NCBI RefSeq assembly: GCF_018350175.1
Contig: NC_058368.1
Coordinates: 6,262,001 to 6,326,000 of the forward strand
Origin: Felis catus
Taxonomy: Eukaryota
Reading direction: 5' to 3'
DNA length: 64,000 nucleotides
Part shown: positions 8,001-61,255 of the stretch, piece after piece
Layout: each line of letters starts with the position of its first letter
How positions within the stretch are numbered: position 1 is the first letter of the stretch
Notes under the pieces: generated by a model
Databases searched by the model: none
The model's input: only the letters and a program-made list of their open reading frames with translations
What the model was told of the DNA's origin: nothing
Made by a program: the position numbers and the translations under genes

Positions 8001-9389
8001 TGGAAATGTTACTTGGGGGGGCCCATGCCCTCTTATGCATGGCCTGGGTCAGGGCAAGGAGATGACGCAGAGCAGCATGTGGGCACTTTTAAGTGCCCCC
8101 CCCCCCGCCCCTCTCTCCCAAGGACTCTTGAATAACCTTGTAGGGAAGAGTCTTCCACAAAATCATGGAGACTGGATTTCCTGCCAGCTGGAAGGAGGGG
8201 TAGGAGGAGGCTTGAAGTGATGGAGAGAAGTTGAAGAAAGGGGTCTGTCTTCTCTCATGAATGTCTCGGAGCTAATTGATCTCATTACATAAGTCTTTCT
8301 TCCCTCTCAGTTTTTAGATCATTTCCACCGACAGAGAAGACAGAGAAAACTAGGATGGGGTATTTCTGTCTTCGCCGAGCTCTCTGTTACCACCAGGCCA
8401 GCTGCCAAGCACAGCTTCAAAGCTTCCGGGCTTCCCGCTTCCTGAATGTCATTCCACAATTTGCATCACAGTGTCCTGTGTGTCCACCCTCAGTGACGTG
8501 CTTCAGTCTTGTATACGTGCATTCAGCAGAGAGTTAATCCAGCCGTGCCCCTGACACGGGGTGCGCTGCGGGCGCAGCCCCGAACAAAACGAGAAAAAAG
8601 CCATCAACCCTGCCCCTCATGGGGCTTGCAGTCGACCGGCCGGCAGACAAGAAACAAGACAAGCAAAACAAGTTGCAGCTTGGAGAGCGATACCAGCTGT
8701 GGGGGAGAATGGAGCACAGAATCGGATCGCGTGCTGGGGCCTGAGGGACCAGGAGTTGAGGTCTGTAATAGTGCAGTCTGGGAAGGTCTCACGGAGACCT
8801 CAACGGTGGGGAGGGGGCGGGGCAGGGGGGTGGGGCAGGTGCCCGGGGAGGGAACCTCCTAGTTGCTTGTTCAATGAGGCCAGACTGACGGGAGCAGAGG
8901 ATTGGAACCGATCCTGTTAAAATTGGAACTCCACAGAGAACCTGCTGGTTTCCCCTTCTCTGTGTCAGAATAGACTGTTCTGGACTCCGATGCAGGAATG
9001 GAACTAAGTGGCCAGGGGTCGTGGTCTCATACGCGGTGGCCTCAGATGGCTGTGCTTTCTGAGTTCTTGATGTCGGACCATCCACTGGCATTTTGTTAAT
9101 TTATTACATTACGCCCGAGTGCCCGTTCTACCTCCGCGAGTAAAACATTCCCGACCCCGACTTCACGGGCTCGGGGATACCAAGAATACAAGCAATGGTT
9201 CTGCTGGAGGACATAAGAGGTAAACGGGCCCGCTGAGAGATCCAGGTGGCTTCTGGTGGGAAAGGAGGTCCAAATCCTGTCTTGAAGGATGGACAGGAAG
9301 GAGTGGGCCAGGCAAAGGGGCGGGGCAGAGCTCTCCAGACATAGCACGCCCAGGGCACCGGGGCACGTACTCAAGACAGTCTCGGGGTG

Positions 9390-9625
9390 GTTCCAGATGT
9401 TTGGAGGCGGGTGAGGATGATGTGGGGGTTGCTGGGCGTTTGTGGACGGAACGATGGCAGAGACACGAGGGCGGTGGGGGCGGCACAGGCCTGGTCGTGT
9501 CTGGTCTCATCAAGGCCCGCACCGGAAGGGCAACCTCCGAGGACAGCCTCGACATCCGCGCGAAAGAAATTTCCGTGGTTTACAAGCCGCCCAGGCCACG
9601 GTGCCTTTCTCTAGCACACGGGAGA
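9390..9625 (+). mobile_element. MLT1-like MaLR LTR remnant, strongly GC-shifted
   Basis: AAATTTCCGTGGTTTACAAGCCGCCCAGGCCACGGTGCCTTTCTCTAGCA resembles the MLT1 3' end (AAATTTCTGTTGTTTAAGCCACCCAGTCTGTGGTATTTTGTTATAGCA). Confidence 0.55.
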
Positions 9626-9849
9626 TGCGCCCGAGCCGAGCAAGTTGCTCTGACCCAGGGCCTGGTTTCCCCTGAGAGCGAGTGATTTTCAAACGCTGGC
9701 TTCAAACCCACATTTCCAGCTCGGATCTTTGTGCTTCCCATCCCTTACTCGGTTGTGTTTGGCACAGTTGAGTTCGCTGAAAAAGTGCCCTCTGGGTAGA
9801 GGAGCTGCTGTCTGGGTCCCCGACAGACCGTCCTAGGTGCAGCTTCCCG

Positions 9850-10800
9850 TGGGCCCGTCACAGGGAGTCCGCGCCTCTGTGGCGCAAGACTCCCAGGCGA
9901 CGTCCACGTCTTAGTCTGTGCGAACAGCGCCCCCAGGAGCTCGGGGGCGGTGTAACCCGCGCGGCCCCGCGCCCCCAGTTCCCCTCGGCTGGCTCCTGGC
10001 CCTGCCATTGTTCCCGGCGGGACTGGAGCGGGCAGAGCAGATGGGGAGGGGCTCTGGGGGCTGTGGGCACGGGGTCCTGCCAGGCTCGCTGCTCTGCGAA
10101 AACGCAGCGACGCCAAACACGGGCTACAAAAGTCCCAAGTGCCCTGCGGGAGGCCCGTGCCAGGCTCCCCTCCCACGGCCTTCAGTGCGCGACTGTGACC
10201 TTGCGCACACACCCCCTCCCCCCTCGCTGGACTGTGGCTCGCTGGCGACGTTGCTGGGACGCGTCCAGGTTGCCATGGGAACGCGCGGGGGCGCTACCGG
10301 TCAAGACCCAGACCCCTCAGAGCCGCTGCAAAATCAACACCACGTACAAGGCCAGGTGCCCAGCAGCACCGTCTCGGCCCACAGCTAACCGGGAAAGGGG
10401 TCCGGAAGGGATGTCGGACCTTGCCTGTCGTTGGGGAAAGCGCCCCTTAGTCCCCGGCCTTAGTGGCTCTGTGCACACATCAGAGAATCACTCCCCGGGG
10501 CTAGGAGGAGGGGGCGAGGGGGCGTGCAGAGAGAGGTGGGCTCTCGGATCAGGAAGACTGGGTTCAAGTCCAGGCTCTGGCACCGGCTAGCCACCCCACT
10601 GTCAAACGGGCACCGTACATCTCCCGGGGTTATCATTGGGGTCAGATGGGAGAACACGGTCAAGTGCGGAGCCCGGCGCACGCCCAGTACCCCTTACGTG
10701 CCAGCTGGTGAGGGCGGAAGGTAAACCACTTTTCTAGCCATAGCGTGGGGCCCTTTGCGGATTCCGGGTGTCTTTGTGGGCATTCGGGGTCCCGGTGCTT
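9850..10800. promoter_or_regulatory. CpG-rich, GC-rich segment (CpG island-like)
   Basis: Visibly dense CG dinucleotides (CGCGCGG, CGCGCGGGGGCG); no associated gene start identified. Confidence 0.5.
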
Positions 10801-11060
10801 GGTAAACACCCGGGATTCTGCTTCTTCCAAAGGGATCTGCTTCCCTGAATGGCTCATCCCTTGACATTCCGTCTAATTACTGCCTTTTCCGTTTGCAGGC
10901 GATGATCCCACAGTTGACGAGAGCTGGGCTTGGTAAACACCTTTCATCTTTGCAGTTAGGGTTTTTTATGTGTACTCCTTCCCCGCCCCCGGCCCCACCC
11001 CGCACCAAAATAGGAGATTAAAAAAAACACAACAACGCCTCTATTAATACATAATTGTGC

Positions 11061-11283
11061 GGGGCGCCTGGGTGGCGCAGTCGGTTAAGCGTCCGACTTC
11101 AGCCAGGTCACGATCTCGTGGTCCGTGAGTTCGAGCCCCGCGTCAGGCTCTGGGCTGATGGCTCAGAGCCTGGAGCCTGTTTCCGATTCTGTGTCTCCCT
11201 CTCTCTCTGCCCCTCCCCCGTTCATGCTTTGTCTCTCTCTCTCCCAAAAATAAATAAATGTTGAAAAAAAAATTAAAAAAAAA
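11061..11283 (+). mobile_element. Young feline CanSINE (SINEC_Fc-type)
   Basis: GGGGCGCCTGGGTGGCGCAGTCGGTTAAGCGTCCGACTTCAGCCAGGTCACGATC head with intact CpGs; TSD AATACATAATT(G/A)TGC. Confidence 0.97.
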
Positions 11284-11466
11284 TACATAATTATGCTAGA
11301 AAAATTAAATAATACAATGCAGATAAACCACAACCAGAAATATAATTAAAATAATCCAGATCTTGCCACCCAGAGACAACCACTGTAACATTGGTTCTAG
11401 ACTCTTTCCCATGTAAATACATATGTCCTTTTAAAGCAAATTTGACTCATGTTATACATAAGGCTC

Positions 11467-11766
11467 TTTCTTTTTTTAATATGAAATTTATTGTTAAATT
11501 GGTTTCCATACAACACCCAGTGCTCATCCCAACAAGGTGCCCTCCTCCATGCCCATCACCCACCCTCCCCACCCTCCCACCCCCCATCAACCCTCAGTTT
11601 ATTCTCAGTTTTTAAGAGTCTCTTATGGCTTGGCTCCCTCCCTCTCTAACCTTTTTTTCCCCCTTCCCCTCCCCCATGGTCTTCTGTTAAGTTTCTCAGG
11701 ATCCACATAAGAGTGAAAACATATGGTGTCTGTCTTTCTCTGTATGACTTATTTCACTTAGCATAA
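11467..11766 (-). mobile_element. 5'-truncated feline L1 3' end (~300 bp)
   Basis: ATGAAATTTATTGTTAAATTGGTTTCCATACAACACCCAGTGCTCATCCC feline L1 terminus; TSD TACATAAGGCTC. Confidence 0.92.
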
Positions 11767-11849
11767 TACATAAGGCTCCTTAAACTGCTTTTCCAACACA
11801 TACATGCTGAACATCCTTCCAAATAAATATAGAAGTATAATCCACAGCA

Positions 11850-12087
11850 TTTTATTTTTTTATTTTTTATTAACTTTTTTTTAATGTTTATTTAGTTTTG
11901 AGAGAGAGAGACAGAGACAGAGCGTGAGCAGGGAAGGGGAAGAGAGAGGGAGACACAGAATCCGAAGCAGGCTGCAGGCTCTGAGCCATCAGCACAGAGC
12001 CCGATGCGGAGCTTGAACTCACGGACCGTGAGATCATGACCTGAGCTGAATTTGGACGCTCAACCGACTGAGCCACCCAGGCACCCC
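11850..12087 (-). mobile_element. CanSINE
   Basis: Full reverse-complement SINE; TSD TCCACAGCAT. Confidence 0.95.
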
Positions 12088-21435: not shown

Positions 21436-21832
21436 TGTATCAGTCTGCATCAGCCTGCAGGAGCCTGTGTAACAAAGACCACAGACTGGGTGGTTTAAAC
21501 AACAGAAATGTGTTTCTCCTGGTTCTGGAGGCTGGAAGTCCAGATCAGGGTGTCAGTAGGTTTGATTTCACCAGAGGCCTCTCTCCTTGGCTTGCAGACG
21601 GCCATCTTTTTGCTGGGTCCTCACATGGCCTTTCTTCCGCGCATCAAGATCCTGGTGTTTCGTGTGTCAAAATTTCTTTTTGTTATAAGGACTTCGGTCA
21701 GATGGGATTAGGGGCCACCCTCATTTTAACTTAATCTCCTCGTTAAAGGCCCTATCTCCAAATACAGTCACATTCTGAGGTTCTTGGGGTAGGGCTCGAA
21801 CATATGAATTTGAGAGGGACACAGTTCAGCGC
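21436..21832 (-). mobile_element. MLT1 MaLR solo LTR
   Basis: ACCACAGACTGGGTGGTTTAAACAACAGAAA...TTCTGGAGGCTGGAAGTCC...GGGACACAGTTCAG. Confidence 0.85.
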
Positions 21833-23621: not shown

Positions 23622-24198
23622 TCCAGAAAAATGGAATTGGTCGTGCTGCCCTGAGGCAGAGACGTAATCCCAGGCTAGTGCCCATCAGGGTGCAGCTCTG
23701 AGAGCCCCACCCCTGCCGCTCTGTCCACGCCCCCATTCCTAACCTTCCCGTGGTCAGAGCCACCCTTCACTGAAGGACCCCCATGTGGCAGGAATGCTTT
23801 CCAGAAATGAACTCAAGGAACACTTGGGTGGACTTCATTATAAATTCTGGCTTAAAGGCGAGAAGCCCGAGGTTCAGAAACCCATATGCCCAAGGTCACA
23901 ACTGAGCCCAGATCTGCCTCTGGGCTCATCGCTTTCAGCATCCCTGCACCCACTGGCCATTAATTAGGCCCTGCCTTGTCGCTCTCCTTGTGCCACTCAC
24001 AGTCCAACGGCAGGCCCTGCAAGGACAGGACCCGGGTCCTGGGGCAGCCGGGGAAGCTTTCAGTGGCGAGGAGCACAGCACCGTGGGTGGTGTCCTTGTT
24101 GTTTCGTGGGCAAAATGGAGGGAGCACCGTGGTCGGGCCCCCTCCCTTAGGAGAGAAAAAACAAAAACAACCTCAAGGCAACCTGACTATCCGCGTAG

Positions 24199-24255
24199 GT
24201 GACAACGTCCCTCACGACCCTGTACCACGAGACCACTCACTCAGACTACCCGTTT
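24199..24255 (+). CDS. Candidate internal exon (VTTSLTTLYHETTHSDYPF)
   Basis: Branch-like CTGAC, TAG acceptor, TTT|GTGAGT donor, 57 nt symmetric, C/G-ending codons; no homology recognised. Confidence 0.25.
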
Positions 24256-24308
24256 GTGAGTTACCATATGTGGGAGACACGGAAGTAGAAAATGTATAAA
24301 AACCTACT

Positions 24309-24510
24309 GGGGCTCCTGGGTGGCTCAGTCGGTTAAGCGTCCAACTTCAGCTCAGGTCATGATCTCACGGTCTGTGAGTTCGAGCCCCGCGTGGGGCTCT
24401 GGGCTGACAGCTCGGGGCCTGGAGCCTGCTTCCGATTCTGTGTCTCCCTCTCTCTCTGCCCCTCCCCTGCTCACGCTCTGTCTCTCTCTGTCTCAAAACT
24501 AAATAGAAAC

Positions 24511-24541
<31 letters not shown>
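24309..24541 (+). mobile_element. CanSINE with long pure A tail
   Basis: Head, body, about 28 A; TSD AAAAACCTAC. Confidence 0.95.
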
Positions 24542-24544
<3 letters not shown>

Positions 24545-24545
<1 letters not shown>

Positions 24546-25500
24546 ACGCCACGTGGCGCTCGGGGCTCAGTTCTTTGGGTGCAAACCCAGCGGAGTGAGC
24601 CCGTGCCAGCACGAATAAACTTGCTTCCTGGAGAGAAAAGCCTCGGTGTCACGATTCCGCGCGAGGATCCTGCCACAGCATTGCACAGCTTATGCCAGCA
24701 GTCGCATGTTTTCGTATTTGGGGAACAGAAAGCCGGGGTAACGGGCACGTACCGAGAGTGAAGCGGAGCCCCCGCGGGGACTGACTGCACGGATGCACGG
24801 ATCCGCTCCCCTGGATGGCGCTGAGAATCCCCGGGAAGCTCCGAAGCCAGCTGGGCGCACCGGTCCTGCAGACGCTAACGAGGGGAGGGAAAGGGCCCGG
24901 GGCCTCAGGGCTTCCATACGTGCAATGGGCACAGCACCACTCCCGCTGCGGCCGGTCAACCGCGAGGCAGCTCTAAGAGAAGCGCATTTGTGAAGCCACA
25001 GCCCGGGGCGTGGCATGTCCTAAGGTGTCCACGTGGTTTCTCTCCCCCCTCTGTCTTCCGTCCTCCCGCTCTGGTGCTTTCCTGCCGCCTAGCCTCGGAG
25101 GGCTTTCCGACGTTACTCGTACCCCGTACCCCGGCTGGAGTGTGGACTTCCCCGTGCGTCATGCTCCCCGCTGCAAGGGTGGGAGGGGACAGAGAGTGTC
25201 CCGGGGACAGGCGCTCACTCCAGTTTGGGTTCCGTCGGGCTCCGGGCAGAGCCAGACCCGGGCTGATCGCTGGCAGGCCGCCAGTCTGGAGGGCAGGCCC
25301 TCGGGGAGCTCAGCAGCCCTTCCCGAGGGGCCGAGAGACCAGAAGAGCTGCCCGAGGCCCGGCGGAGGGTCCCCCTGGAGCCCAGGCCAGGGCGGTGCCC
25401 GCCGGGGACCCCCTCGCTGCGGGCCACGCAGTCAGAGGAGGCTCCAGAAACTCCCACCGCTGCTCTCCACTTGCCAGCATCTTCTTTCCTTCGCCTTAGC
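24545..25500. promoter_or_regulatory. CpG-rich, GC-rich segment (CpG island-like)
   Basis: Dense CG dinucleotides; includes a GC-shifted MIR-like stretch near 24900-25030. Confidence 0.5.
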
Positions 25501-25687
25501 CTCAAGAGCCTTTTTTGTTTTGCACTGTTTGAAGATAATGCTATCGATTTGCACACAGGCTGTTGTTTATTTTACCTTTCTAAGTATTTAAGGCTTCTGG
25601 TCTGTGGTCTATAACTTTATCCGTGTTTGACTACCTTAATTTCCTTCCTGCCCTGTTTTGAATTTCTCCCTTCTATTTAAAAAAATG

Positions 25688-25888
25688 TTTTTTTCTGATG
25701 TTTATTTATTTTTCGAGAAAGAGACAGAGCAAGAGTGGGGGAAGGGCAGAGAGACAGAGAGACTCTGAAGCAGGCTTCGGCTGTCATGACAGCTCAGAGC
25801 CGGAGGCCCGGCTGGAACTCAAGAACCAGGAGATCACCGCCTCTGCTGAAGTCCGAGGCTTAACCAACTGAGCCACCCAGGCGCCCCG
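25688..25888 (-). mobile_element. CanSINE
   Basis: Reverse-complement SINE ending CCACCCAGGCGCCCC. Confidence 0.9.
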
Positions 25889-26444
25889 TAAATCATTTTA
25901 ATTTAAGTGAACATCCTTTTATCAGCCGTGTTTTAGTTCTTCATCTATCTTCATACTCTTCATAACACAAATTATTTTGTCTTTTTAAATTTCCTTCTTA
26001 TATCCTGTCCTTCTTCGTTTCTTTTTGGTTCTTCTGTTCCTTTGGATGTCTTAGGTTTAGGTAGCATCTGATTTCTTTTTAACTCTAGTTTGTAAATGGC
26101 GGGCAGAATGCGCATGTGTGGAGTGAGGAGGCCAAGAGGGGGTCCAGGCCGTCAGCAGAGGCCCCGGGTCAGCGCCGTCTCCAGCCCTGGAGACGTCTGC
26201 TTCTCTGGCTCATCGTGACACAGCTTCCAGCCCCTCCTATGTTCCCTGAACCAGGGTCCATCCATGTCCCCCAGAGGCCCCCAGGCTGCAGATGGATGTG
26301 GGCAGGTGACAAACAAGCTTCCAAGAGTAATAAAAACCATAAAGAAAATGTAACAAGAAATGAAGGTAGAGGCTGAAGAGTGACAGTGTGAGGACAGATG
26401 ACTGGGGAACTTAGCAGAGAAAGTGGCAGTCCCCTGCTCCAGGT

Positions 26445-26657
26445 TTCTTTCTTTCTTTCTCTCTCTCTTTCTTTCTTTCAAGTTTATTTATCTATTTTGA
26501 GAGAGACAGAGCATAAGCGGGGGAGGGGCAGAGAGCGGGAGAGAGAGAATCCCAAGCAGGCTCCACACTGTCAGCGCACAGCCTGACATAGGGCTCGAAC
26601 TCACCAACTGTGAGAGCCAAGAGTCAGACATTAACCGACCGAGCCACCCAGGTGCCC
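26445..26657 (-). mobile_element. CanSINE
   Basis: (TTTC)n tail, body, ends CCACCCAGGTGCCC. Confidence 0.9.
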
Positions 26658-27395
26658 TAGATTTTGTTTTTATTTCCTAAGATGCGGTCAGGTCTCTTCT
26701 CCCGGCAGGTGGTTTTGTCTGCGTGCTGGGAGCCAGAGAAGGCCTGAGGCAGGAGGCCCAGACGACGTGTCAAGGAGCTTTCAATTCTGTGATTGTACGA
26801 TTCATTCTTAGTAACCGTTTGCCTCTGTGGGTTCTTTTTCTGTTGTGTCTTTTGGATACGCGGGACTCCTGGAAATAAAAGTTGTTGGAAAATTCCATTT
26901 GGGAAGAACTGCCGGAATGGTGTTAAGGTATCATTTACATGGTAACCGTGTCCCCGGTAGGAGGCACCGAAAGATGGAAATCACATACAAACAAGCAGAA
27001 GAATTGGTTTCCGCCCCCCGGAATGATGGGGCCTGGGGCCAGGCAGGGAGATGACGCACTCCCAGCAGGGGGGGGGGGTGCTGGGGGCAGCTGGGGGGAC
27101 ACGTTCTTGCCTCTCCTCTCACGGGGAGGCCGGGCAAAGCTGGCCTGCAAGAATAGGGAGGGTCGGGGCAAGGTTACTGTAGGGGATTCAGGGTTGAGAA
27201 GAATTGAGCTCTAGAAGGGTCACGATTATTCAGCAAACTCCATGCAATAGTCAACGTCACCGGGCATCCTGGGACGCGTCTACCCGGGGACAGCTTGTCT
27301 AGGGACTCCTGAGCTGGGCAGCCTCGGGAGCTGGCTGCCGGCTGCAGGCTCGCCTTGTCTCCTCTGGCAAGGAGGTCCGGCAGGGCTGGCCGGGC

Positions 27396-27411
27396 CAGCG
27401 CCATCTGGTGA
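27396..27411 (-). promoter_or_regulatory. CTCF core motif
   Basis: Minus strand TCACCAGATGGCGCTG matches the CTCF consensus. Confidence 0.55.
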
Positions 27412-29409
27412 AGCTGGAGGGAGAGGTAGGCGTCTTCCACCCTCGGCTGCCAGTGCATGGGGCCTGCAGGTAAATACCAAGTGAGCTCCCGCGAGCTGAG
27501 CCCAGCAAGTCTGTCTGCAACAGGTGATAGGGCTGCGGTGGGCTTGTCAGAGAGGCTCTGGGAGGGGGTGACAAGATAAAGAGGGGAAGGGGTTGGGATC
27601 ATCCAATAAACAGCTGTGACGGCAGCTCCCAGCGGATCGCGTGGGCAGACCTAGACCCGTACGGGGCTCAGGACTAATGAACCCGCCTGGGGGGAGGCTC
27701 TACCCGGGATTGGGGCGCAGCGACTCTGGTTGGACTTGAGTGGGAAGCCTGGTGCTCTGCCTCCTCCCTCCCCCCCAGCAGGGCCATTAGAGGGACCTCC
27801 AGGGGCGGGGCCTCTCCCAGGCTTCCCTTTACGAAGACAAGAACATTCGGGTCGGGACTGAAACCGCACGACTCGACTTTCGCTTCACCGTCCACGTAGG
27901 CAAAGACCAGGAGCCCCACCAGCCTCTCTAGAAGGCTGGGGGCTCATGGGAAAAGATTCTTCCAGCATCTTCTGACATGCTTCACCTCCTCCGAAAGAGC
28001 ATCACGCTTGCCACATGGCATCGTAATTGTCTTTTTTGCAGTTGGGTCCCCTCACCCGCACATAGCTCGAGGGAATTCGACTGTAGGTGCTCAAAAGAAC
28101 ATGTGACATAAAAAGCAACATCCTGTGTGTGATCTTGCCCGCCGTCCCCCACCATGCGCAGGTGCCCCGGAGTGCGGCTCTGCAAACGTTCGTACCCAGT
28201 TCCGATCCTCTCTTGCCGGGAGCATCTCACACGCTGGCGTTTAGAGCTACGATTCATATTTTTCATACAACGTGACCTCAAAACACAAGTCAAGCCAAAT
28301 GCTTCGTCTGGTGCTCAGCCACAGAAAACAGCCATCTGTTCCGGGGCTGCGGGGAAACCGGCTTTGTTGTATTTCTTGAGAGGCTGTGTTTCAGATGCCA
28401 GCCAACGTGCCTCCTCCCTGGGGATGTTCCCCTCCCCCCCCCAAGAATAATTTTGATTATACTTGATTTTCTTCTTGATGCCGAAATCTACCTAAGCCCT
28501 GCCGGAAATGCAACTCCTTTCTAGCTTTCTTCCCGGCTAAGCTGCGAGCTCCCCGAAGGGTGGCCCATATCGAATTCGCCCCACACGGTAGGCACAGTCC
28601 TGTGCATGAACAGAGAAGCCGGAGGGGAGCCGAGGGCGGGCGCCTGGACGGTCTTGCTCATTTACCCAAGGCGGGGGGCGGACTGAGATTACAGATGATG
28701 AGCTGGTCATCCTCCAGATCTGCACGAAGGAGATGAACTCCTGCCTATGCTCTGCTCACCTGCTGTGCACCCCACCTTTGTGAGGAGACATGGCCTGACA
28801 CACTGTAAGTGCTTCGAGCTTCCAGGATTCCACGCTCGCGTGTCTCGTTTGCTCACTGGACACGCGGCCTCAGGCTCCTTCGCTGGGTCCTCTTTCTTTT
28901 CCTAACCTGGAAACACTCGGGAGCCCCAGTCGCAGTCTTTGTCTCTGTCCTCTCTTCCCCACCTGCACGTGCATCTCAACGTGGTCCTGCCCAACCCCGC
29001 AGGTGTCCGTATCGTCGTGCCCCACGCTGTCCCGTATGGTAGCCACCAGCCGCGCACGGCCACGGAGCCTGTGAAATGGGACAAGTCCACACTGGGACGT
29101 ACTGTCCGTGTCGATCCACACCGGATTTTGAAGGCTTAGTATGGAAAAAACCAAAAAAAGTAGAGTAGCTCATTAATACTTTTGTATTGATTAGATGCTG
29201 ACGTGGTAAAAGGTTGGCTCCGCTGGATGAAGTTGAATTCGTGAAAAGGAGTGTCACCTGTTTCCTCATGCCTTGTTTTTAGCGTGACTGCTGGAAAGTT
29301 TTGAGGTCTCTAAGTGACGCACACATTTTCTTCTGTTGGACCCTTCTGATCTCCACGCTGACGACTCCTAAATTTCTGTCTCAAGTCTCTTTTCTTGGAG
29401 GTTTAGTGG

Positions 29410-29469
29410 CGTATCAGTCAAGCTTCTCCAGAGACACAGATCCAATGGGATGTAGGCGCACACATATAT

Positions 29470-29500
<31 letters not shown>

Positions 29501-29838
29501 GAGAGAGAGAGATTTAAGGAATTGGTTCACGTGGTCGGGGGGCTGGCAAGTCTCAAATCTGCAAGACAGGCCAGCTGGCTGGAAACCCAGGGTAGAGTTG
29601 ATGTTGCATCTTGAGTCTGAAGGCAATCTGCTGGCAGAATTCCTCCTTCCTCGAAGGTCCTCAGTCTTTGAAGGACTTCAACTGATTGGATAGAGGGTAA
29701 TCTGTTTCACTCAAAGTCTACTGATTTAAGCGTTAATCTCATCTAAAAAAAAAAAATACACCTCCACTGCGACACCTGGACTGGTATTTAACCAAGTAGC
29801 AGCACCATGCCCAGCCAGGTCAGCGCATAAAATTACCC
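29410..29838 (-). mobile_element. MLT2-like ERVL solo LTR with internal (TG)n(GA)n
   Basis: TTCTCCAGAGACACAGA...TAAGGAATTGGTTCAC...GGCTGGCAAGTCTCAAATCTGCA...CATAAAATTACC. Confidence 0.8.
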
Positions 29839-29859
29839 GCCCGTAAAATAAGTGCTTTG

Positions 29860-30400
29860 GCCACCTTGGCATCTCCACGGAGTGGTCTGATGGCCATCTT
29901 AGACTTCCCGTGCCCCAAGCAGACCTCTCTGCTCCCCGCCCCCCCGCCGCCTTCCTTCCACCCAGTTGTTCAGCCCAAATCCTAGGAGTCCTCGGCAACA
30001 CCTTTCTTCCCTCACCTCTCCTCTCCTGTCCATCAGCCAAGTCCTGCCGGCTCGGCCGTTAGATCAGATCCTGATTCTGACACCGCCCCGCTGGTCCAAG
30101 CCACCATCACCTGTCACCTGCATGTGACAGTTGTCCAAACCCTCTCCCTGCCTCCCCTGCCACCCACCTACACACGAAGCCCACAGCAGCGACACTCTCC
30201 TGTTTAAAACACCAGCTTACCAAGGAACCCCCAGTCTCAAAACTCTAATGGCTTTCTATCACATTCAGAATCAAATCAGAAATCTTTACTGAAGCCCACT
30301 TGGCAAAGACCCGCCCCTGCCAGTCTCTCTGAGCCCACAATCCACTGCTCACCTTGGCCAAACTGGTCTTCTCACAGTTTCTCAGATGCGTCAAAGGCAT
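29860..30400 (+). mobile_element. L2 fragment
   Basis: CCAAATCCTAGGAGTCCTC...CATCAGCCAAGTCCTG...GGTCCAAGCCACCATC typical of L2. Confidence 0.65.
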
Positions 30401-46910: not shown

Positions 46911-47224
46911 ATTAATTTTTACTATTTTTATATGACATTTATTGTCAACTTGGTTTCCACACCACACCCAGGGCTCATCCCAACAGGTGCCCTCCTCAAT
47001 TCCCATCACCCACCTTCCCCTCCCTCCCCCTCCCCATCAACCCTCAGTTTGTTCTCAGTTTTTTAAGAGTCTCTTATGGCTTGGCTCCCTCCCTCTCTAA
47101 CTTTTCTTTTTTCTTCCCTTCCCCTCCCCCCATGGCCTTCTGTTAAGTTTCTCAGGATCCACGTGAGAGTGAAAACATATGGTATCGGTCTTTCTCTGTA
47201 TGACTTATTTCACTTAGCATAACA
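46911..47224 (-). mobile_element. 5'-truncated feline L1 3' end (~310 bp)
   Basis: Same feline L1 terminus as 11467-11766; TSD CATTGGGGTATTTTT. Confidence 0.92.
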
Positions 47225-50072: not shown

Positions 50073-50297
50073 GGGGCGCCTGGGTGGCGCAGTCGGTTAA
50101 GCGTCCGACTTCAGCCAGGTCACGATCTCGCAGTCCGTGAGTTCGAGCCCTGCGTCAGGCTCTGGGCTGATGGCTCAGAGCCTGGAGCCTGTTTCCGATT
50201 CTGTGTCTCCCTCTCTCTCTGCCCCTCCCCCGTTCATGCTCTGTCTCTCTCTGTCCCCAAAAAAATAAATAAACGTTGAAAAAAAATTAAAAAAAAA
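50073..50297 (+). mobile_element. Young feline CanSINE (SINEC_Fc-type)
   Basis: GGTGGCGCAGTCGG...CAGCCAGGTCACGATC head; TSD AAAATAGCCTTTT. Confidence 0.97.
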
Positions 50298-51643
50298 ATA
50301 GCCTTTTAAAATCAGAATTCCTGTCTGAGTAATAAGTTGAATCAAATTTTCGGATTAAAAAAAAAAAAAAAGATGGGATACGGGTTTTTCATTTCTCCTG
50401 CTAGTTGTTTCCAGGCAACCTTGAACTTGTCAAATAAAAAAGTCTAAGCAGAAGACTGAGATGTATGACCTTACTTTGAGAAGCCTGCTCTGGTCAGGCT
50501 AAGCGCGCTATTCAGCATTACAACCAGACATTCCTTAGAGACCAACGTCTTTTCTCACGTTCGGTGTTCTCGGGTGATTTCAGGAAGAAAACGTGGTGTA
50601 GTGGGAGAACATAGTATTTGGGCTTACTTACTCTGAATCCTTTGAAGCCACCAGGCTTTATTGCTGTGAGCTTGGGGAAAAAATCATCTAAAGTCTCTGA
50701 GCTTTGATGTCTTTGTCTCTGAAATGTGTCTAACCGCCCAACCTGCCTCCCTCCTCATGACATCACGTGTACCACGTGACTGAACGGTAAACTGAAGCTG
50801 CCTTTTGCGATCATCATCATTGTCGTCGTCATCCGTGAAGCTCCCCTCATCGGCTGCCCCTGCCAGGGCCTGCACACATGTGGCTGTGGCCAGTTCCCAA
50901 GGTGCGGCCCCCTACCCCACTGCTCCCCACCCCAGGGCCACCTTCGCGCAGCCAGAATTACAACTGGCTGGGCTCTACCTTCTTGACTTCCACGTCCTTA
51001 ATCCTTGGCCAGCGAGGGCTGACTCCAACTCGCACCCACTTTGGCCCTTGGCCGCTGGCTTCCGGTCTTTTCCAGCCACTGGGCCCAATCTGGGGTGACG
51101 CAGTTCCAGCCTGATTTGGGGGGTCAATCAAAGAGAGGCCTTTGCCACTTGTTCTGAACTTGGTTGGAGTTCTGATCACCCCTCAGCCCTGCATTTGGCA
51201 TCTAGCCTTTCCTTATTCACGTGGGGAAGGAGCAATTATTGTCCCTGTGAAAATGGCAAGGCCTCCGTTCCCCTTCTCTGTTCTCAGACAGCACCAGATA
51301 GGGAGAGAGGAAATAAAAAAAGCCACGGGGAACCGCTGAGGCTGTTAACTTCTCCAAACCTCTTTGGTCTTCAGAGACTCATGCTGAAGATCCCCCAGGA
51401 GAGAATTTCTAAATGAAAAGAGGGAACTGGATTTATTCAAAAGCTACTTCCTCCTTGCAGGATGGAAGGAGCCTTCTGTCTCAACACAAAATATGCCATT
51501 TCAGAAGAAAGCTCTTTTTTTTCTTCTTCTTCTTCTATTATGGCAAAATACAATGTTCCTTTGTCAGGAATGGGGAAACCTCAGAAGACGTAGCTCTTCC
51601 CTCCACAGACGTGAGGACTGACTTCTATATTTTCTATTTTAAG

Positions 51644-54129: not shown

Positions 54130-54655
54130 ATCCCTACCCCGATCAGCATCTTTCACAGAACCTCTCCTCCATGTGGCTAATTGGGCTTCCTCATAGCATG
54201 GCAGGCTCAGGGAAGTTGGACTACTTTCATGGCTTTAAGAGGGAGCATTCTAAGCAGCAAAGGCAGAAGTTACAGATCTCCTGAGGACCAGCTCAGAAGT
54301 CACACGGGGCGCCTGGGTGGCGCAGTCGGTTGAGCGTCCGACTTCAGCCAGGTCACGATCTCGCAGTCCGGGAGTTCAAGCCCCGCGTCAGGCTCTGGGC
54401 TGATGGCTCGGAGCCTGGAGCCTGTTTCCGATTCTGTGTCTCCCTCTCTCTCTGCTCCTCCCCCGTTCATGCTCTGTCTCTCTCTGTCCCAGAAATAAAA
54501 TAAAAACGTTGAAAAAAAAAAAAAGAAGTCACATGGCTTCACTGTCACTCATTCTATTGGTGCAGACAGGCCACAGGGTTGGTTGGATTCAAGGGCAGGG
54601 GAACCCAAACCCACCTGTGGTGGGAAAGAATTGTTGGCCATCTTGAATCCAGCAC
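54130..54655 (-). mobile_element. Old MLT1-like LTR interrupted by a SINE
   Basis: TGGGCTTCCTCATAGCATGG...CAGAAGTCACA...CATTCTATTGGT...GATTCAAGG. Confidence 0.65.
54306..54523 (+). mobile_element. Young feline CanSINE (SINEC_Fc-type)
   Basis: Feline head; TSD AGAAGTCACA(C/T)GG. Confidence 0.97.
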
Positions 54656-54679: not shown

Positions 54680-55205
54680 TTTAAAAAAATTTTATTTATT
54701 TATTTGTTTATTTTTTAATTTACATCCAAGTTAGTTAGCACATAGTGCAATAATGATTTCAAGAGTAGATTCCAGGGATTCATCCCCTAGGTATAACACC
54801 CAGTGCTCATCCCAACAAGTGTCTTCCTTAATTCCCCTTACCCATTTAGCCCACCCCTCCCCCACAACCCCTCCAGCAACCCTATTTGGTTGCTGTATGT
54901 TTTGTCCCCCTCCTTGTTTTTATATTCCTTTTTGCTTCCCTTCCCTTATGTTCATCTGTTTTGTATCTTAAATTCCACATATGAGTGAAGTCACACAATA
55001 TTTGTCTTTCTCTGACTAATTTCACTTAGTATAGTACCCTCTAGTTCCATCCACATTGTTGCAAATGGCAAGATTTCATTCTTTTTGATTGCCAAGTAAT
55101 GCTCCATTGTATGTATGTATGTGTATATATATATATGTATATGTATGTATGTGTATATATATGTATTTATATGTATGTATGTGTGTGTATATATGTATAT
55201 GTATA

Positions 55206-55251
<46 letters not shown>

Positions 55252-55300
55252 CACATATCTCACATCTTCTTTATCCATTCATCTGCCAATGGACATTTGA
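54680..55300 (-). mobile_element. Feline/carnivore L1 3' end with internal (TA)/(TG) microsatellite (about 55108-55255)
   Basis: Minus-strand remnant [32 protein letters not shown] is L1 3' sequence. Confidence 0.9.
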
Positions 55301-57113: not shown

Positions 57114-57507
57114 TGTATTAGTCTGCTTGGGTGGCTGTCATAAATACCACAGGCTGGGGGCTTAGTTAGGCCACAGAGATTATTTTCCCACAGCCCAGGA
57201 GGCTGGCGGTCCAAGATCAAGAGGTCAGCAGGGTTGGTTTCTCCTGAGGCCTCTCTCCTTAGCTTGTAGAAGGTCCCATTCTCCCAATGTCCTCACTTGG
57301 GCTCCTCGCCGTACACCTGCATGTCTGGTGTCTCCTCCTCTTGTTATAAGGACACCAGTCATATCGGGTGAGGGTCCCGCCCTTATGACCTCATTTAACT
57401 TAATTACATCTTTCAAGGCCCCATCTCCAAATATGGTCACTTCCTGAGGTACTGGGGGTTAAGATTTCGATGTATGAATTCGGGGGGACACAGTGCAGTC
57501 TGTAAGA
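57114..57507 (-). mobile_element. MLT1 MaLR solo LTR (left copy of inverted pair)
   Basis: TGTATTAGTCTG...ATAAGGACACCAGTCAT...ATGACCTCATTTAACTTAATTACATCT...GGGGACACAGT. Confidence 0.9.
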
Positions 57508-57695
57508 CCAATACAACTTTATTTCTTTATTTGTGCTTTATTTTGCGTCAACACAACTAATTCAGCCTTGGGGGGGGGGCGGGTGCAGAAATTAGCAGAG
57601 CTACTAGGTAATCTTCTTTTCTAGTTATTCTGAAGCCACTGACAAGAGGGTTGAGGACACAACTGTTTGTATGTAGTTCTTTCGATGTTTTACCG

Positions 57696-57735
<40 letters not shown>

Positions 57736-58009
57736 CCCTAGGAGAGCAAGTCTTATTTATTCATTTTTCTTACAAATCTTTGAAAACCTCTCTCTTCTCC
57801 TGCCACTGCTTTCTTTCAGACCCTTATCATTTTTTTCCCGAATTCCATTATCCGCCCTAGTCCCCCTTCCCACCGTCCCCCCGGCCAGGTGAGGAGGCGA
57901 TTTCCTGAAACACAGATCTCATCACACCACTTTCTGCTTACATCCCTTCAGTAGTTCCCCTATTTGCTTCCAGGATTAAGTTCAAACTCTTCAGTGGCTT
58001 TACAAGGAG

Positions 58010-58690
58010 GCTGACCAAACTGATGCTATCAAGTGCTGGTGAAGATGTGGAGGAACTGGAACTTTCCTACGTTGCCAGGAGCAAAGCAAAGTGATACAGC
58101 CACTTCAAGAAACAGTTTGGGAGTTTCATGTAAACTAAACATACACTTATCATGTGACCCAGAAATCCCACTCCTACATAATTACCCCTAGAAAAATGAA
58201 AATCTACCTTCACACGAAAGCCAATATGCAAACGTTTACAGTGCCTTCATTGATGATTGCCAGAACCTGAAACAACCCAAAAGTCCCTCAACTAAGGAAT
58301 GAATAACAAGCTGTGGGACATCTATAAACTAGAATACTCCTTAGCGATAAAAATAAAACACACACATTCCTGATACAAGTAACAACATATATGACTTTCA
58401 TATCCACTGTGCTCAGGAGTCAGATTCAAAAAGCTAAAGACTTGATGAACCCATTTCTTCACACTCTTGCAAAGGAACAAGGCACAGAAAGATCATTGAT
58501 TGCCAAGGGCTGAGCTGGGGGAGGGGCTGATCATAAAGGGCACAGGACTTTGGTGGCTTGCGGAGCTGTGTCCGTACCTTGACTGTGGTGGTGGTTACAC
58601 ACTTGTATATATTGGTTCAAGTTCCCAGAACTGTATACTAAAAAGAATGACTTTTACCACATGTAAACAGTTCCTTAATTTTAAAAAATG
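58010..58690 (+). mobile_element. Old L1 (L1MB/MC-like) 3' fragment
   Basis: AAGTGCTGGTGAAGATGTGGAG...GACCCAGAAATCCCACTCCT...AAACAACCCAAA...CTTGACTGTGGTGGTGGTTACAC. Confidence 0.8.
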
Positions 58691-58698
58691 AGAAAACA

Positions 58699-58847
58699 GG
58701 GGTGCCTGGGTGGTTCAGTCAGTTAAATGTTTGACTCTTGATCTCGGCTCAGGTCATGATCCACGGTTCGTGAAATCTATCCCCGAGTCGGGGTCTGCAC
58801 TGACACTGGAAAACTTGCCTGGGATTCTCTCACCCTCTCTGTCTCTG

Positions 58848-58880
<33 letters not shown>

Positions 58881-58910
58881 ATAAATAAATAAGCTTTAAA
58901 AAATCCTTTA
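58699..58910 (+). mobile_element. CanSINE (older subfamily)
   Basis: Head, (CT)n, tail; TSD AAAATGAG(A/G)AAACA. Confidence 0.9.
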
Positions 58911-59702
58911 AAAATGAGGAAACAAAAATACTGACCATATGTCCTGATTATCCTGGTACAGCTCAGATTTATGCCTATTGTCCCTGGGTAATTTAGTCCA
59001 CCTTCCACCTTTTACTCTAAGAAAAAAAATGTCCCCAAATTGTACAATCATCGTCTTAGCCCAGGATAAACCCAGAAAGCAGCCCCTGAAATCAGGATTT
59101 GTGGAGAGACACTTTGTTTTGGAAAGTGATGCCAGGGAGTAGGACTGGAAACTGGGAAATGGTGAAGCAGGGAAAGGGGCAAGGCTAATACTCGGGGGGC
59201 CGCCCTTTGTGTAGTGGGGGCTTGTCTCCACGGGTTCTTACCCTGTGTGGTTTGGAAAAGAGGAGTGTTTCTACCCTGCTCTCCTCCTGGGTCGGTCCGA
59301 CACGGCCCACGGGGTGCTGGGTTCCAGGTTGCGCATCCTCGGGGCCACGTGGGTCAGTGTTGGCATCCTATTCATCATCTGAGAAGCCCCCAGGAGGCGA
59401 GGGGAAGGTACAGGCAGAAGCCGAGATGTGGTTCTGTCGGGCTACACCCGAGGAAAGCCAATTGCTGCAGCAGCGGCTGGCATAAAGCATGGGCGGAGAT
59501 GGCGTGAGGTGGGACACAAGAGGTGTCCGATTCAGGCATCCTACTTAGAAGGCCCTTTGGTGCTGGGTCCTGATTTCTTTTCTGACCTTACCTCCAGCTC
59601 GTCCTTCACGTGCTCGTGACCCAACCACCTGACCCTGGACATTTTGTGCTCTCCCTTGCCTCTCAGTCCCTAAGTCGTTCTTCTTTAGGGCTGCCACCGA
59701 AG

Positions 59703-59734
59703 GTTATATAGGTTGTACGTACAACCTATATAAC
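59703..59734. repeat. Perfect 32-bp palindrome
   Basis: GTTATATAGGTTGTAC|GTACAACCTATATAAC is its own reverse complement. Confidence 0.97.
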
Positions 59735-60042
59735 TGCCCAAGGGCTACTGGAACAGGGGACATATCGGGACTGTCATCCAACCCGACCTCCACTGTATCC
59801 TCAGTGGAGAGGTGCCCACAGAGCTGTATCTCCCCAGCGACGGTACCTTTTCCCAACTTGCACAAAGGCACCCTCTAGCCTGGAAGCAAGCCCGCTCCTC
59901 TTGGAATGTGTCCTCTGGTTTCCATAGTCTCATGTCTCCTGTCCCTCTCTGCTTGCCTACTGTTCATCCTCCAAACTCACCCTAGGAAACATCAGCCTTT
60001 CCTAATCCTCCTCCAACCCAGCCCTAAGCTATTAAATACCCC

Positions 60043-60432
60043 TTGTTATGGGTTGAATTGTTCCTCCCCAAACTCGTATGTTAAGACCCTAAATGTGTAC
60101 TACCTCAGAAGGTGATTCTATTTGAAGATACGTCCCTTAACTAAGTGATCGAATTAAAATGGCGCCCCTGAGAGTGGGCTCTAATCCAATGTGACTGGTG
60201 TCCTTATAACAAGAGGAAGAGACACCAACACGCAGGTGCATGGCGAGGAGCCCAAGTGAGGACATTGGGAGAATGGAACCTTCTACAAGCTAAGGAGAGA
60301 GGCCTCAGGAGAAACCAACCCTGCTGACCTCTTGATCTTGGACCGCCAGCCTCCCGGGCTGTGAAAAAAATAGATTTCTGTCGTCTAAGCCCCCAGCCTG
60401 TGCTGTTCGCTTATGGCCACCTGCGCTAATAG
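60043..60432 (+). mobile_element. MLT1 MaLR solo LTR (right copy of inverted pair)
   Basis: TGTTATGGGTTGAATTGTTCCTCCCCAAA start; TAATCCAATGTGACTGGTGTCCTTATAA. Confidence 0.9.
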
Positions 60433-61255
60433 ACCCCTGTTCTGTGCCCTCATAATACCTTAAGCATATGTGTTTTAGCTAGTATTCCAGAGTCTGAGAA
60501 CCACTGGTGTCCCTGCTTCCTCCCCCAGCTGGATCATCGGCTCCTGGAGGGCGGTGTGATCTCGTTAGCATTCACTCTCTATCACCCAGGGCAGCGCCCG
60601 ACATCAATATTTGTAGAATGAATGACTAGGCAGAAAAACCCTTATCTCATTTGGCATCCTGAGAAACTGTAGCTGCTGGTGCCATTAGAGGCTCAAATGA
60701 GAGAAGCAAATTTTATGAAAAATATATCCAGAAACACCGCTTCATTCCATAAAATGTTTCCAATATAGATAATACAGTGTCACCAGCGGGAAATTATGGC
60801 TTCCCATTAGCTATGGGGTTGGCTTCTATCTGCGTTCCAAATTTAACTCCTATCACTCTTTACCTTGATCACTGTGCTGGAGCAAAGATCAACATTTTGC
60901 TGCTTGCTCTATCTGCCTCTTTCTGCAGCCACCCCGGCCACCACCCACCACACACGTCCCGCACATGCTGGGTGGGATCCTGCGGCTGTCCGTGCTTCTC
61001 TTCTGGAAGGTTCCCCCACTTGTCCCTGACAGCCCTCCTTCCCCTCCTAGGTGCACCATGCCTCTCGTCTGCTCCAGGGATTCTCCCATTTCTGCTTCAG
61101 ACTAGATCAAACACTTCTTCTGCATGCTGTCTTATACCTGGGAGTACAGCTTACCATATCATTTACCACAGTACATCACAGGTACCCATTTCCACGGTTG
61201 TCTTCCTGATATACCAGAAATTCCTTGAAAGCAAGGACCTTATCCCTTTCATTAA

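What the first reader, a model, noticed from the sequence alone, without database searches (positions are those of the whole stretch)
57189..60363. Two ancient inverted MLT1 LTRs share a nearly identical 122-bp core
Seen: 57189-57310 is the reverse complement of 60242-60363 with only 2 mismatches in 122 bp. High similarity continues for about 50 bp more (to about 57361 and 60192), while the outer parts of the two LTRs are clearly divergent. Known: MLT1 elements predate the placental radiation, so independent copies are normally strongly diverged; the other MLT1 copies here (21436, 36965, 45466) show no such identity. Inference: recent gene conversion between inverted repeats about 2.9 kb apart, possibly with recurrent or polymorphic inversion of the intervening DNA, or selection to keep a long RNA stem (ADAR substrate, splicing or circularisation element).
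Basis: partly seen in the sequence, partly recalled or inferred. Interest (0 to 1): 0.7.

Follow-up and report, generated by a model that had tools for sequence, protein, structure and literature searches.

The report
Gene-converted core in inverted old LTRs
Two very old retrotransposon remnants that face away from each other 2.5 kb apart in a cat-like genome have had a 173-base middle piece copied from one onto the other by DNA repair, a clean example of a known process whose only unusual feature is how different the two copies are elsewhere.

Summary
57189-57310 and 60242-60363 are inverted copies with 2 mismatches in 122 bp, inside a 173-bp in-register tract (57189-57361 / 60192-60363; 6 transitions, 1 gap). 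The rest of the two ~390-bp MLT1-like solo LTRs is only 61% identical, and identity falls to 5/10 and 6/10 just outside the tract. Against three other MLT1-like copies in the window the tract is 53-70% identical and carries 32 shared versus 4 private differences (10 versus 61 outside), so it was copied, not conserved. The right LTR keeps a 5-bp target-site duplication on both sides, so this sequence has the spacer in its original orientation: no net inversion. Best reading (0.85): non-allelic gene conversion between nearby inverted LTRs, last acting roughly within felid history, possibly more than once. The unusual point is a 61% background, below the ~80% usually needed. Inversion polymorphism, orthologues, transcription and RNA editing were not tested. 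No gene was found in the window. A perfect 32-bp palindrome lies in the spacer. New member of a known kind; interest 0.3.

The parts
57114..57507 (-). Left MLT1-like (ERVL-MaLR) solo LTR, 394 bp; family name and sense strand are recalled, not from a library
   Evidence: Ends placed by alignment with the right copy and three other copies; flanking 5-mers match only 2 of 5
57149..57166 (.). 18-bp exact run shared with the right LTR outside the main tract; possible remnant of an older or discontinuous tract
   Evidence: Longest exact match outside the tract 18 bp, against 8 bp on the inner side; 3 shared and 0 private differences; permutation P = 0.07 on an alignment that gives it 14 columns: inconclusive
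57189..57310 (.). Left arm, most identical part of the converted tract (120 of 122)
57311..57361 (.). Left arm, less identical inner part of the tract (46 of 50 plus one gap); possibly an older stratum
   Evidence: 5 of the 7 tract differences lie within a span of 24 bp, P = 0.02
57508..60043 (.). Spacer, 2536 bp, non-coding by Pfam scan; holds microsatellites, an old SINE (58685-58933) and other repeat remnants; in the original orientation relative to the LTR insertions
59703..59734 (.). Perfect 32-bp palindrome (16-bp arms, no loop), 310 bp from the right LTR; resembles a remnant of a palindromic MER91-type DNA transposon (recalled)
   Evidence: Only non-microsatellite hairpin with arms over 10 bp and loop up to 12 in the window; 1.5e-5 expected by base composition
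60039..60043 (+). Inner copy of the 5-bp target-site duplication of the right LTR
   Evidence: 5 of 5 match to 60434-60438
60044..60433 (+). Right MLT1-like solo LTR, 390 bp, inverted relative to the left one
60192..60363 (.). Right arm of the converted tract (172 bp); 60242-60363 is the 122-bp core
60434..60438 (+). Outer copy of the 5-bp target-site duplication of the right LTR

Best explanation
Two MLT1-like solo LTRs inserted separately, long ago, 2.5 kb apart and in opposite orientation (shown: separate flanks, 61% identity outside the tract). Later, homology-directed repair used one LTR as template for the other and overwrote 173 bp in register (shown: tract, sharp edges, shared differences; inferred: the repair event). 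There was no net crossover, so the spacer kept its orientation (shown for this sequence by the target-site duplication). The arms have since gained 6 transitions and 1 gap. The last exchange dates to a few to about 25 million years ago (inferred, rate-dependent). Whether this was one or two late events between already diverged copies or the surviving core of long-running concerted evolution is open. I lean slightly (about 55:45) to repeated exchange because the tract looks layered (98% then 92%). The event is most likely neutral, with no function.
For: Tract 166/172 versus 129/213 outside. Immediately flanking 10-bp blocks 5/10 and 6/10. In 140 tract columns where at least two of three other copies agree: 32 shared, 3 left-only, 1 right-only; in 176 columns outside: 10 shared, 25 left-only, 36 right-only. 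Tract is no closer to the nearest other copy (70%) than the rest is (68-70%). 0 of 276 SINE pairs reach 120/122 and 2 of 276 reach 166/173. Orientation likelihood ratio 4e4 to 8e5 for original orientation under assumed per-base retention 0.6-0.7; MaLR duplications are 5 bp (PMC2836564, passages). Tract length and distance fit known conversion: mean 250 bp (10.1101/135152, passages); elevated within 10 kb for Alus (PMC6598467; PMC8230782).
Against: Background identity 61% is below the ~80% at which conversion mainly occurs, and 173 bp is under the ~200-bp minimal efficient segment in rodents (PMC3924818, passages). Nearby inverted young SINE pairs in the window show no such tract (105-109 of 122). 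GC-bias tests disagree: 16 weak-to-strong versus 16 strong-to-weak (P = 0.053 against the bias expected from long-running conversion) with one polarisation, 23 versus 15 with another. Donor, direction and timing need orthologues, which were not available. The left LTR's duplication is not recognisable (2/5), so the orientation test rests mainly on one C-rich 5-mer.
Confidence: 0.85

Rival explanations
1. The tract is the crossover zone of a recurrent or polymorphic 2.8-kb inversion. Crossovers between the arms flip the spacer and renew the identity, and this sequence happens to carry the original orientation. This adds to conversion rather than replacing it.
For: Human inversions between inverted repeats are mostly recurrent (PMC6748972, passages). 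HsInv0347 is bounded by the MaLR element THE1C (PMC3961182, passages), with 1582-bp repeats, 3 recurrence events and both orientations in chimpanzee and gorilla (supplement file 9). Conversion beside an inversion between inverted L1s is described (PMC5829575, passages). The tract may be layered (P = 0.02).
Against: This sequence is not inverted. The repeat is far shorter than those in the human recombination-type rows I saw (755 bp and up, 4 of 24 such rows seen). Human inversions with short 249-297-bp repeats were classed as non-homologous in origin (supplement). No read or population data were obtained.
Confidence: 0.15
2. Selection keeps a long RNA duplex (ADAR substrate, splicing or circularisation element) in a transcript that crosses both arms.
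For: The arms would form a very stable duplex on either strand (-354 and -371 kcal/mol), which follows from the identity alone. 5 of 6 substitutions would be G-U pairs on a minus-strand transcript (two-sided p about 0.22 by hand, not significant).
Against: No Pfam match at E up to 0.001 in 674 of 674 stop-free frames of 45 aa or more outside masked repeats and no Rfam match, so no host gene was identified; short exons or a large intron are not excluded. 32 shared changes need copying, not paired mutation. The core has diverged from other copies as fast as the flanks, so it shows no sequence constraint.
Confidence: 0.04
3. Assembly or polishing artefact: reads of one arm overwrote the other.
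For: Not excluded. The best runs hold 0.94 of the sampled words, and words specific to one arm are only 3% of the stretch.
Against: The arms differ at 7 places; all 6 substitutions are transitions and 3 are at CpG, as decay would give (chance 0.001 for random errors). Copies only 61% alike would not attract each other's reads unless the core were already alike (inference).
Confidence: 0.03
4. No exchange took place: the core is a slowly evolving part of the LTR, or the two copies are a young subfamily or a recent duplication.
For: No repeat library was at hand, so a young related family elsewhere in the genome cannot be formally excluded (no genome held).
Against: The core is 53-70% identical to three other copies, like the flanks. 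A recent duplication or insertion would make whole LTRs alike, but both ends are at about 58-62% or lower, and the right copy has its own target-site duplication.
Confidence: 0.02

Closest known systems
Non-allelic gene conversion between transposable-element copies (Alu-Alu, LTR-LTR; reviews and studies PMC6598467, PMC8230782, 10.1101/135152, PMC3924818)
   Same: Separate insertions under 10 kb apart; tract of a few hundred bases or less; identity far above the rest of the element; shared derived differences.
   Different: Background identity is 61%, below the >80% (optimum 89-100%) quoted in those papers; the elements are eutherian-age MLT1-like LTRs, not young Alus or ERVs; shown here from one genome, without orthologues or polymorphism.
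Human recurrent inversions between inverted repeats, in particular HsInv0347 bounded by THE1C MaLR elements (PMC3961182, PMC6748972)
   Same: Inverted MaLR-family repeats a few kb apart with a highly identical zone.
   Different: Repeat here is 173 bp against 1582 bp; no second orientation is known here, and this sequence keeps the original orientation.
Inversion with conversion between oppositely oriented L1PA7 copies in NA12878 (PMC5829575, Figure 4H as described in the text)
   Same: Conversion tract inside oppositely oriented, separately inserted retroelements.
   Different: There the spacer is inverted and the elements are young, long L1s; here no net inversion and short old LTRs.

Membership tests
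MLT1 (ERVL-MaLR) solo LTR | Sequence match to an MLT1 subfamily model (Dfam/Repbase) | not testable with these tools
MLT1 (ERVL-MaLR) solo LTR | 5-bp target-site duplication (PMC2836564) | tested here: met
   Right copy 5 of 5; left copy only 2 of 5, so met for one of two copies.
MLT1 (ERVL-MaLR) solo LTR | TG...CA termini (recalled) | tested here: inconclusive
   On the + strand each copy starts with TG and ends with GA, one change from CA.
MLT1 (ERVL-MaLR) solo LTR | Dispersed, deeply diverged multicopy family of about 350-450 bp without coding sequence | tested here: met
   Five copies in 64 kb, pairwise 47-70% over the tract columns and 49-70% elsewhere, apart from the converted tract itself; no Pfam match nearby.
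MLT1 (ERVL-MaLR) solo LTR | Present at orthologous sites across placental mammals (PMC10735291) | not testable with these tools
   No mammalian genomes are held.
Non-allelic gene conversion between TE copies | Tract of high identity inside older paralogues, in register | tested here: met
   166/172 versus 129/213; edges 5/10 and 6/10.
Non-allelic gene conversion between TE copies | Shared derived differences confined to the tract | tested here: met
   32 shared versus 4 private inside; 10 versus 61 outside; polarised with three other copies, which are not true ancestors.
Non-allelic gene conversion between TE copies | Paralogues closer to each other than to their orthologues; one-way transfer | not testable with these tools
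   No orthologues or population sequence obtained (one search returned no data).
Non-allelic gene conversion between TE copies | Usual condition (typical, not defining): identity above about 80% | tested here: not met
   61% outside the tract today; identity at the time of the first exchange is unknown. PMC3924818 notes low-rate conversion below 80%.
Non-allelic gene conversion between TE copies | GC bias in converted tracts (typical) | tested here: inconclusive
   16:16 with one polarisation, 23:15 with another, against 33:36 and 26:27 outside.
Inverted-repeat-mediated recurrent inversion | Inverted repeats over 90% identical at both breakpoints | tested here: met
   97% over 173 bp, short for this class.
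Inverted-repeat-mediated recurrent inversion | Spacer inverted in this sequence relative to the ancestral state | tested here: not met
   Target-site duplication pairing 5/5 and 2/5 for original, 0/5 and 0/5 for inverted.
Inverted-repeat-mediated recurrent inversion | Both orientations among individuals or related species | not tested
   No reads or other assemblies were seen (one search returned no data).
Inverted-repeat dsRNA / ADAR substrate | One transcript crossing both arms, with A-to-I editing | not tested
   RNA runs were listed but none was laid; no gene identified.

The most novel reading that the evidence does not exclude
The 173-bp core is a self-renewing recombination site that has stayed in concerted evolution since the two LTRs inserted near the origin of placental mammals, while the rest of each LTR drifted to 61%. 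It still serves as the hinge of a small flip-flop inversion across carnivores, and breaks at the cruciform-prone 32-bp palindrome in the spacer keep triggering the exchange. It would be a natural measure of the smallest and oldest repeat pair that a mammalian genome can keep recombining.
Probability: 0.12. Interest if true: 0.6.

Novelty: new member of a known kind. Interest (0 to 1): 0.3.

Why it matters
As it stands it is a tidy neutral example of ectopic gene conversion. Its value is as a boundary case: conversion between copies that are 61% identical elsewhere, over a tract shorter than the usual minimal segment. If orthologues show that the core is homogenised separately in cat, dog and human lineages, it would show that a sub-200-bp repeat pair can stay in concerted evolution for about 100 million years, and that short ancient repeats can be overlooked inversion breakpoints. 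If the tract is felid-only, it documents a rare exchange between strongly diverged sequences. Either result also shows how conversion can distort repeat ages locally.

Tried and rejected
Gene search: 674 of 674 stop-free frames of 45 aa or more with under 40% repeat mask gave no Pfam match at E up to 0.001; the six matches at E 0.002-0.032 are below cut-off and were dropped. Rfam: 0 matches. Public runs: 24 listed; six RNA-type rows hold 0.66, 0.63, 0.46, 0.22, 0.15 and 0.09 of the words, but all are gut, mammal or feline metagenome libraries and none was laid, so they are not used as evidence of transcription or of the species. One search returned no data, which leaves polymorphism, inversion alleles and editing open. 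GC-bias test: contradictory. The 18-bp island: depends on gap placement, P = 0.07. Longest-gap test for layering in the tract: P = 0.12, against P = 0.02 for the cluster test. The list of 'close' inverted SINE pairs printed included distant pairs through a sorting error; only three checked pairs are used. The 91%-identical direct pair 11474-11766 / 46925-47222 looks like two young L1 3' ends (label recalled), unrelated. A recalled DUX-type motif matches with one mismatch in three LTR copies but outside the tract, and the window count is at chance, 6 against 7.7. Bacterial promoter and terminator scan of 59600-60000: 0 sites, not applicable. Literature searches for this locus or an MLT1 pair of this kind listed no matching report; one search gave 5 papers, of which I read passages of 3. 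The library lacks most subscription papers, files 13-18 of the PMC6748972 supplement were not searched, and bioRxiv supplements were closed.

Full report
Observation. The finding is real and at the stated coordinates. 57189-57310 equals the reverse complement of 60242-60363 except at 57197 and 57275. The repeat finder reports the same pair as 142-nt arms at 95%. Identity stays high to 57361/60192, giving a 173-column tract with 6 substitutions and 1 gap. Outside it the two elements match at 129 of 213 aligned bases (61%); the chance of at most 2 differences in 122 at that divergence is 9e-24, and 7e-10 at 20% (boundaries were chosen after seeing the data). The 77-bp exact run is the longest inverted exact match among 157 non-simple exact matches of 22 bp or more in the window. 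Of 276 pairs among 24 hand-picked SINE copies, none reaches 120 of 122 in its best window and 2 reach 166 of 173. Two ancient elements are thus locally as alike as the youngest SINEs here.

Setting. The window is rich in carnivore-type SINEs (family label recalled), and earlier unchecked notes call the genome cat-family. No gene was found: 674 of 674 stop-free frames of at least 45 aa outside masked repeats had no Pfam match at E up to 0.001 and Rfam had none. Short exons or a long intron are not excluded. No whole genome is held.

Anatomy. The left element runs 57114-57507 and the right 60044-60433, in opposite orientation, 2536 bp apart. Three more copies lie at about 21436, 36965 and 45467. 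Papers place MLT1 elements in the placental ancestor (PMC10735291, passages; PMC11359688, passages). The right copy has the same 5 bases on both sides (60039-60043, 60434-60438); MaLR insertions make 5-bp duplications (PMC2836564, passages). The left copy's flanks match at 2 of 5. The tract edges are sharp: the adjoining 10-bp blocks match at 5 of 10 and 6 of 10, and the alignment stays in register across both edges.

Copied, not conserved. Over the tract the arms are 53-70% identical to the other three copies; against the closest copy it is 70% inside and 68-70% outside. In 140 tract columns where at least two of the three other copies agree, the arms share 32 differences and have 4 private ones; in 176 such columns outside, 10 are shared and 61 private. 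The other copies are not ancestors, so the counts are approximate, but the contrast is large.

Orientation. One crossover in the tract would swap the inner halves of the LTRs and re-pair their flanks. The flanks pair at 5/5 and 2/5 under the original arrangement and 0/5 and 0/5 under the inverted one. With assumed per-base retention of 0.6-0.7 the likelihood ratio is 4e4 to 8e5. So this sequence has had no net inversion. The test leans on one C-rich 5-mer, and it cannot see an even number of flips or an inverted allele in other animals.

Age and number of events. All 6 substitutions are transitions, 3 at CpG, as expected for decay after copying. With 2.3e-9 per year (0.86e-8 per generation at 3.8 years; 10.1101/2021.04.06.438608, search listing with start of abstract) the 122-bp core dates to 3.6 million years (0.4-12.6) and the whole tract to 7.6 (2.8-16.2). 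With a recalled 1.1e-9 these become 7.5 (0.9-26) and 16 (6-34). CpG changes inflate these figures. Five of the 7 differences fall within a span of 24 bp (P = 0.02), though a longest-gap test gives P = 0.12. An 18-bp exact run lies 22 bp outside the tract with 3 shared and no private differences, but its permutation P is 0.07 on another alignment. These hint at more than one round. By hand, the human conversion rate of 2.5e-7 per generation (10.1101/135152, passages) against the cat mutation rate gives a steady-state divergence near 3%, which matches the 1.6-8% seen; so continuing exchange is numerically possible. Against it, the flanks are no more alike than unrelated copies and show no gradient, and the GC-bias tests disagree: 16:16 (P = 0.053 against the expected bias) or 23:15, by polarisation.

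Mechanism. Best reading, 0.85: intrachromosomal non-allelic gene conversion between nearby inverted LTRs without net crossover, neutral in effect. Shown: separate insertions, an in-register tract, shared differences, original orientation. Inferred: the repair pathway, the date, neutrality. Unknown: donor and number of rounds. The real oddity is the background. Conversion mainly needs over 80% identity and about 200 bp of near-perfect match in rodents, though low-rate exchange below that is reported (PMC3924818, passages); the optimum is given as 89-100% (PMC8230782, passages). Either the core has been kept alive from a time when the copies were alike, or a rare exchange crossed a large divergence. 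Three nearby inverted young SINE pairs show no tract (105, 107 and 109 of 122), so proximity and inversion alone do not make one.

Palindrome. A perfect 32-bp palindrome lies at 59703-59734, 310 bp from the right LTR; it is the only non-microsatellite hairpin with arms over 10 bp in the window, with 1.5e-5 expected. It resembles a MER91-type remnant (recalled, untested); MER91C is listed as palindromic (PMC5424272, passages), which would explain the symmetry but not its perfection after so long. It may be a second case of templated correction, or a break-prone site that fed the LTR exchange. No evidence here links the two.

Rivals. Recurrent or polymorphic inversion, 0.15: precedent exists, including HsInv0347 between THE1C MaLR elements (PMC3961182, passages; 1582-bp repeats and 3 recurrences in supplement file 9 of PMC6748972) and conversion at an inversion between inverted L1s (PMC5829575, passages). 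But the repeats in the 4 of 24 recombination-type rows I saw are 755 bp or longer. Selected RNA stem, 0.04: the duplex would be stable, but no transcript is known and the core is unconstrained. Artefact, 0.03: 14 DNA-type runs of 6 studies hold 0.89-0.94 of 541 sampled words, which confirms the region but not each arm, since arm-specific words are 3% of the total; the transition-only pattern argues against error. No exchange, 0.02. One search returned no data, so alleles, orientation in other cats and editing remain untested.

Relation to known work. This works like, and on the features testable here belongs with, non-allelic gene conversion between transposon copies (PMC6598467, parts 1-2 of 4 read). 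The orthologue test that would complete membership could not be run. It is not shown to be an inversion locus (PMC6748972, passages; PMC13629690, passages, for the genotyping design). Searches listed no report of this locus or of such an MLT1 pair; the library omits most subscription papers. Earlier unchecked notes from this scan describe three L1 pairs with converted cores in the same genome, two of them inverted, which suggests the pattern is not rare there; they are leads, not support.

Verdict. Observation confirmed; gene conversion supported; net inversion excluded in this sequence; RNA-stem selection unsupported. New member of a known kind, interest 0.3. The boldest open reading, about 100 million years of concerted evolution at a 173-bp inversion hinge, has probability about 0.12 and would merit 0.6.

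Noticed in passing
window 59703-59734: Perfect 32-bp palindrome with no loop inside the spacer, 1.5e-5 expected by composition; looks like a MER91-type remnant (recalled). Possible hairpin correction or cruciform site.
   Followed up: partly
window 57149-57166 and the matching stretch of the right LTR near 60385-60402: 18-bp exact run between the two LTRs outside the main tract, with 3 shared differences; in the left copy it is followed by a 4-bp tandem duplication.
   Followed up: partly
window 11474-11766 and 46925-47222: Direct pair, 91% over 299 bp, that looks like two young L1 3' ends (label recalled); the first is flanked by a direct repeat of about 12 bp. Ordinary.
   Followed up: yes
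window 11061-11285, 50073-50300, 54306-54527: Three very similar young SINE copies (93-95%), with an 89-bp exact run between the first two, 39 kb apart; probably a recent subfamily.
   Followed up: partly
window 57396-57406, 60146-60156, 21727-21737: One-mismatch matches to a recalled DUX-type motif at the same place in three LTR copies, outside the converted tract; window-wide count is at chance, 6 against 7.7.
   Followed up: partly
window 8001-12000 and 24001-30000: GC- and CpG-richer blocks (up to 57% GC and 111 CpG per 2 kb) with long stop-free frames such as 9781-10587 and 24879-25496 but no Pfam match; possible regulatory regions or unrecognised exons.
   Followed up: no
window 55108-55258: Compound TA/TGTA microsatellite of about 150 bp inside an old L1-like fragment.
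   Followed up: no
whole window: Earlier unchecked notes place RNF17 about 5.8 Mb before and PCDH8 and TDRD3 24-30 Mb beyond this window, a lead for finding the orthologous interval in other mammals.
   Followed up: no
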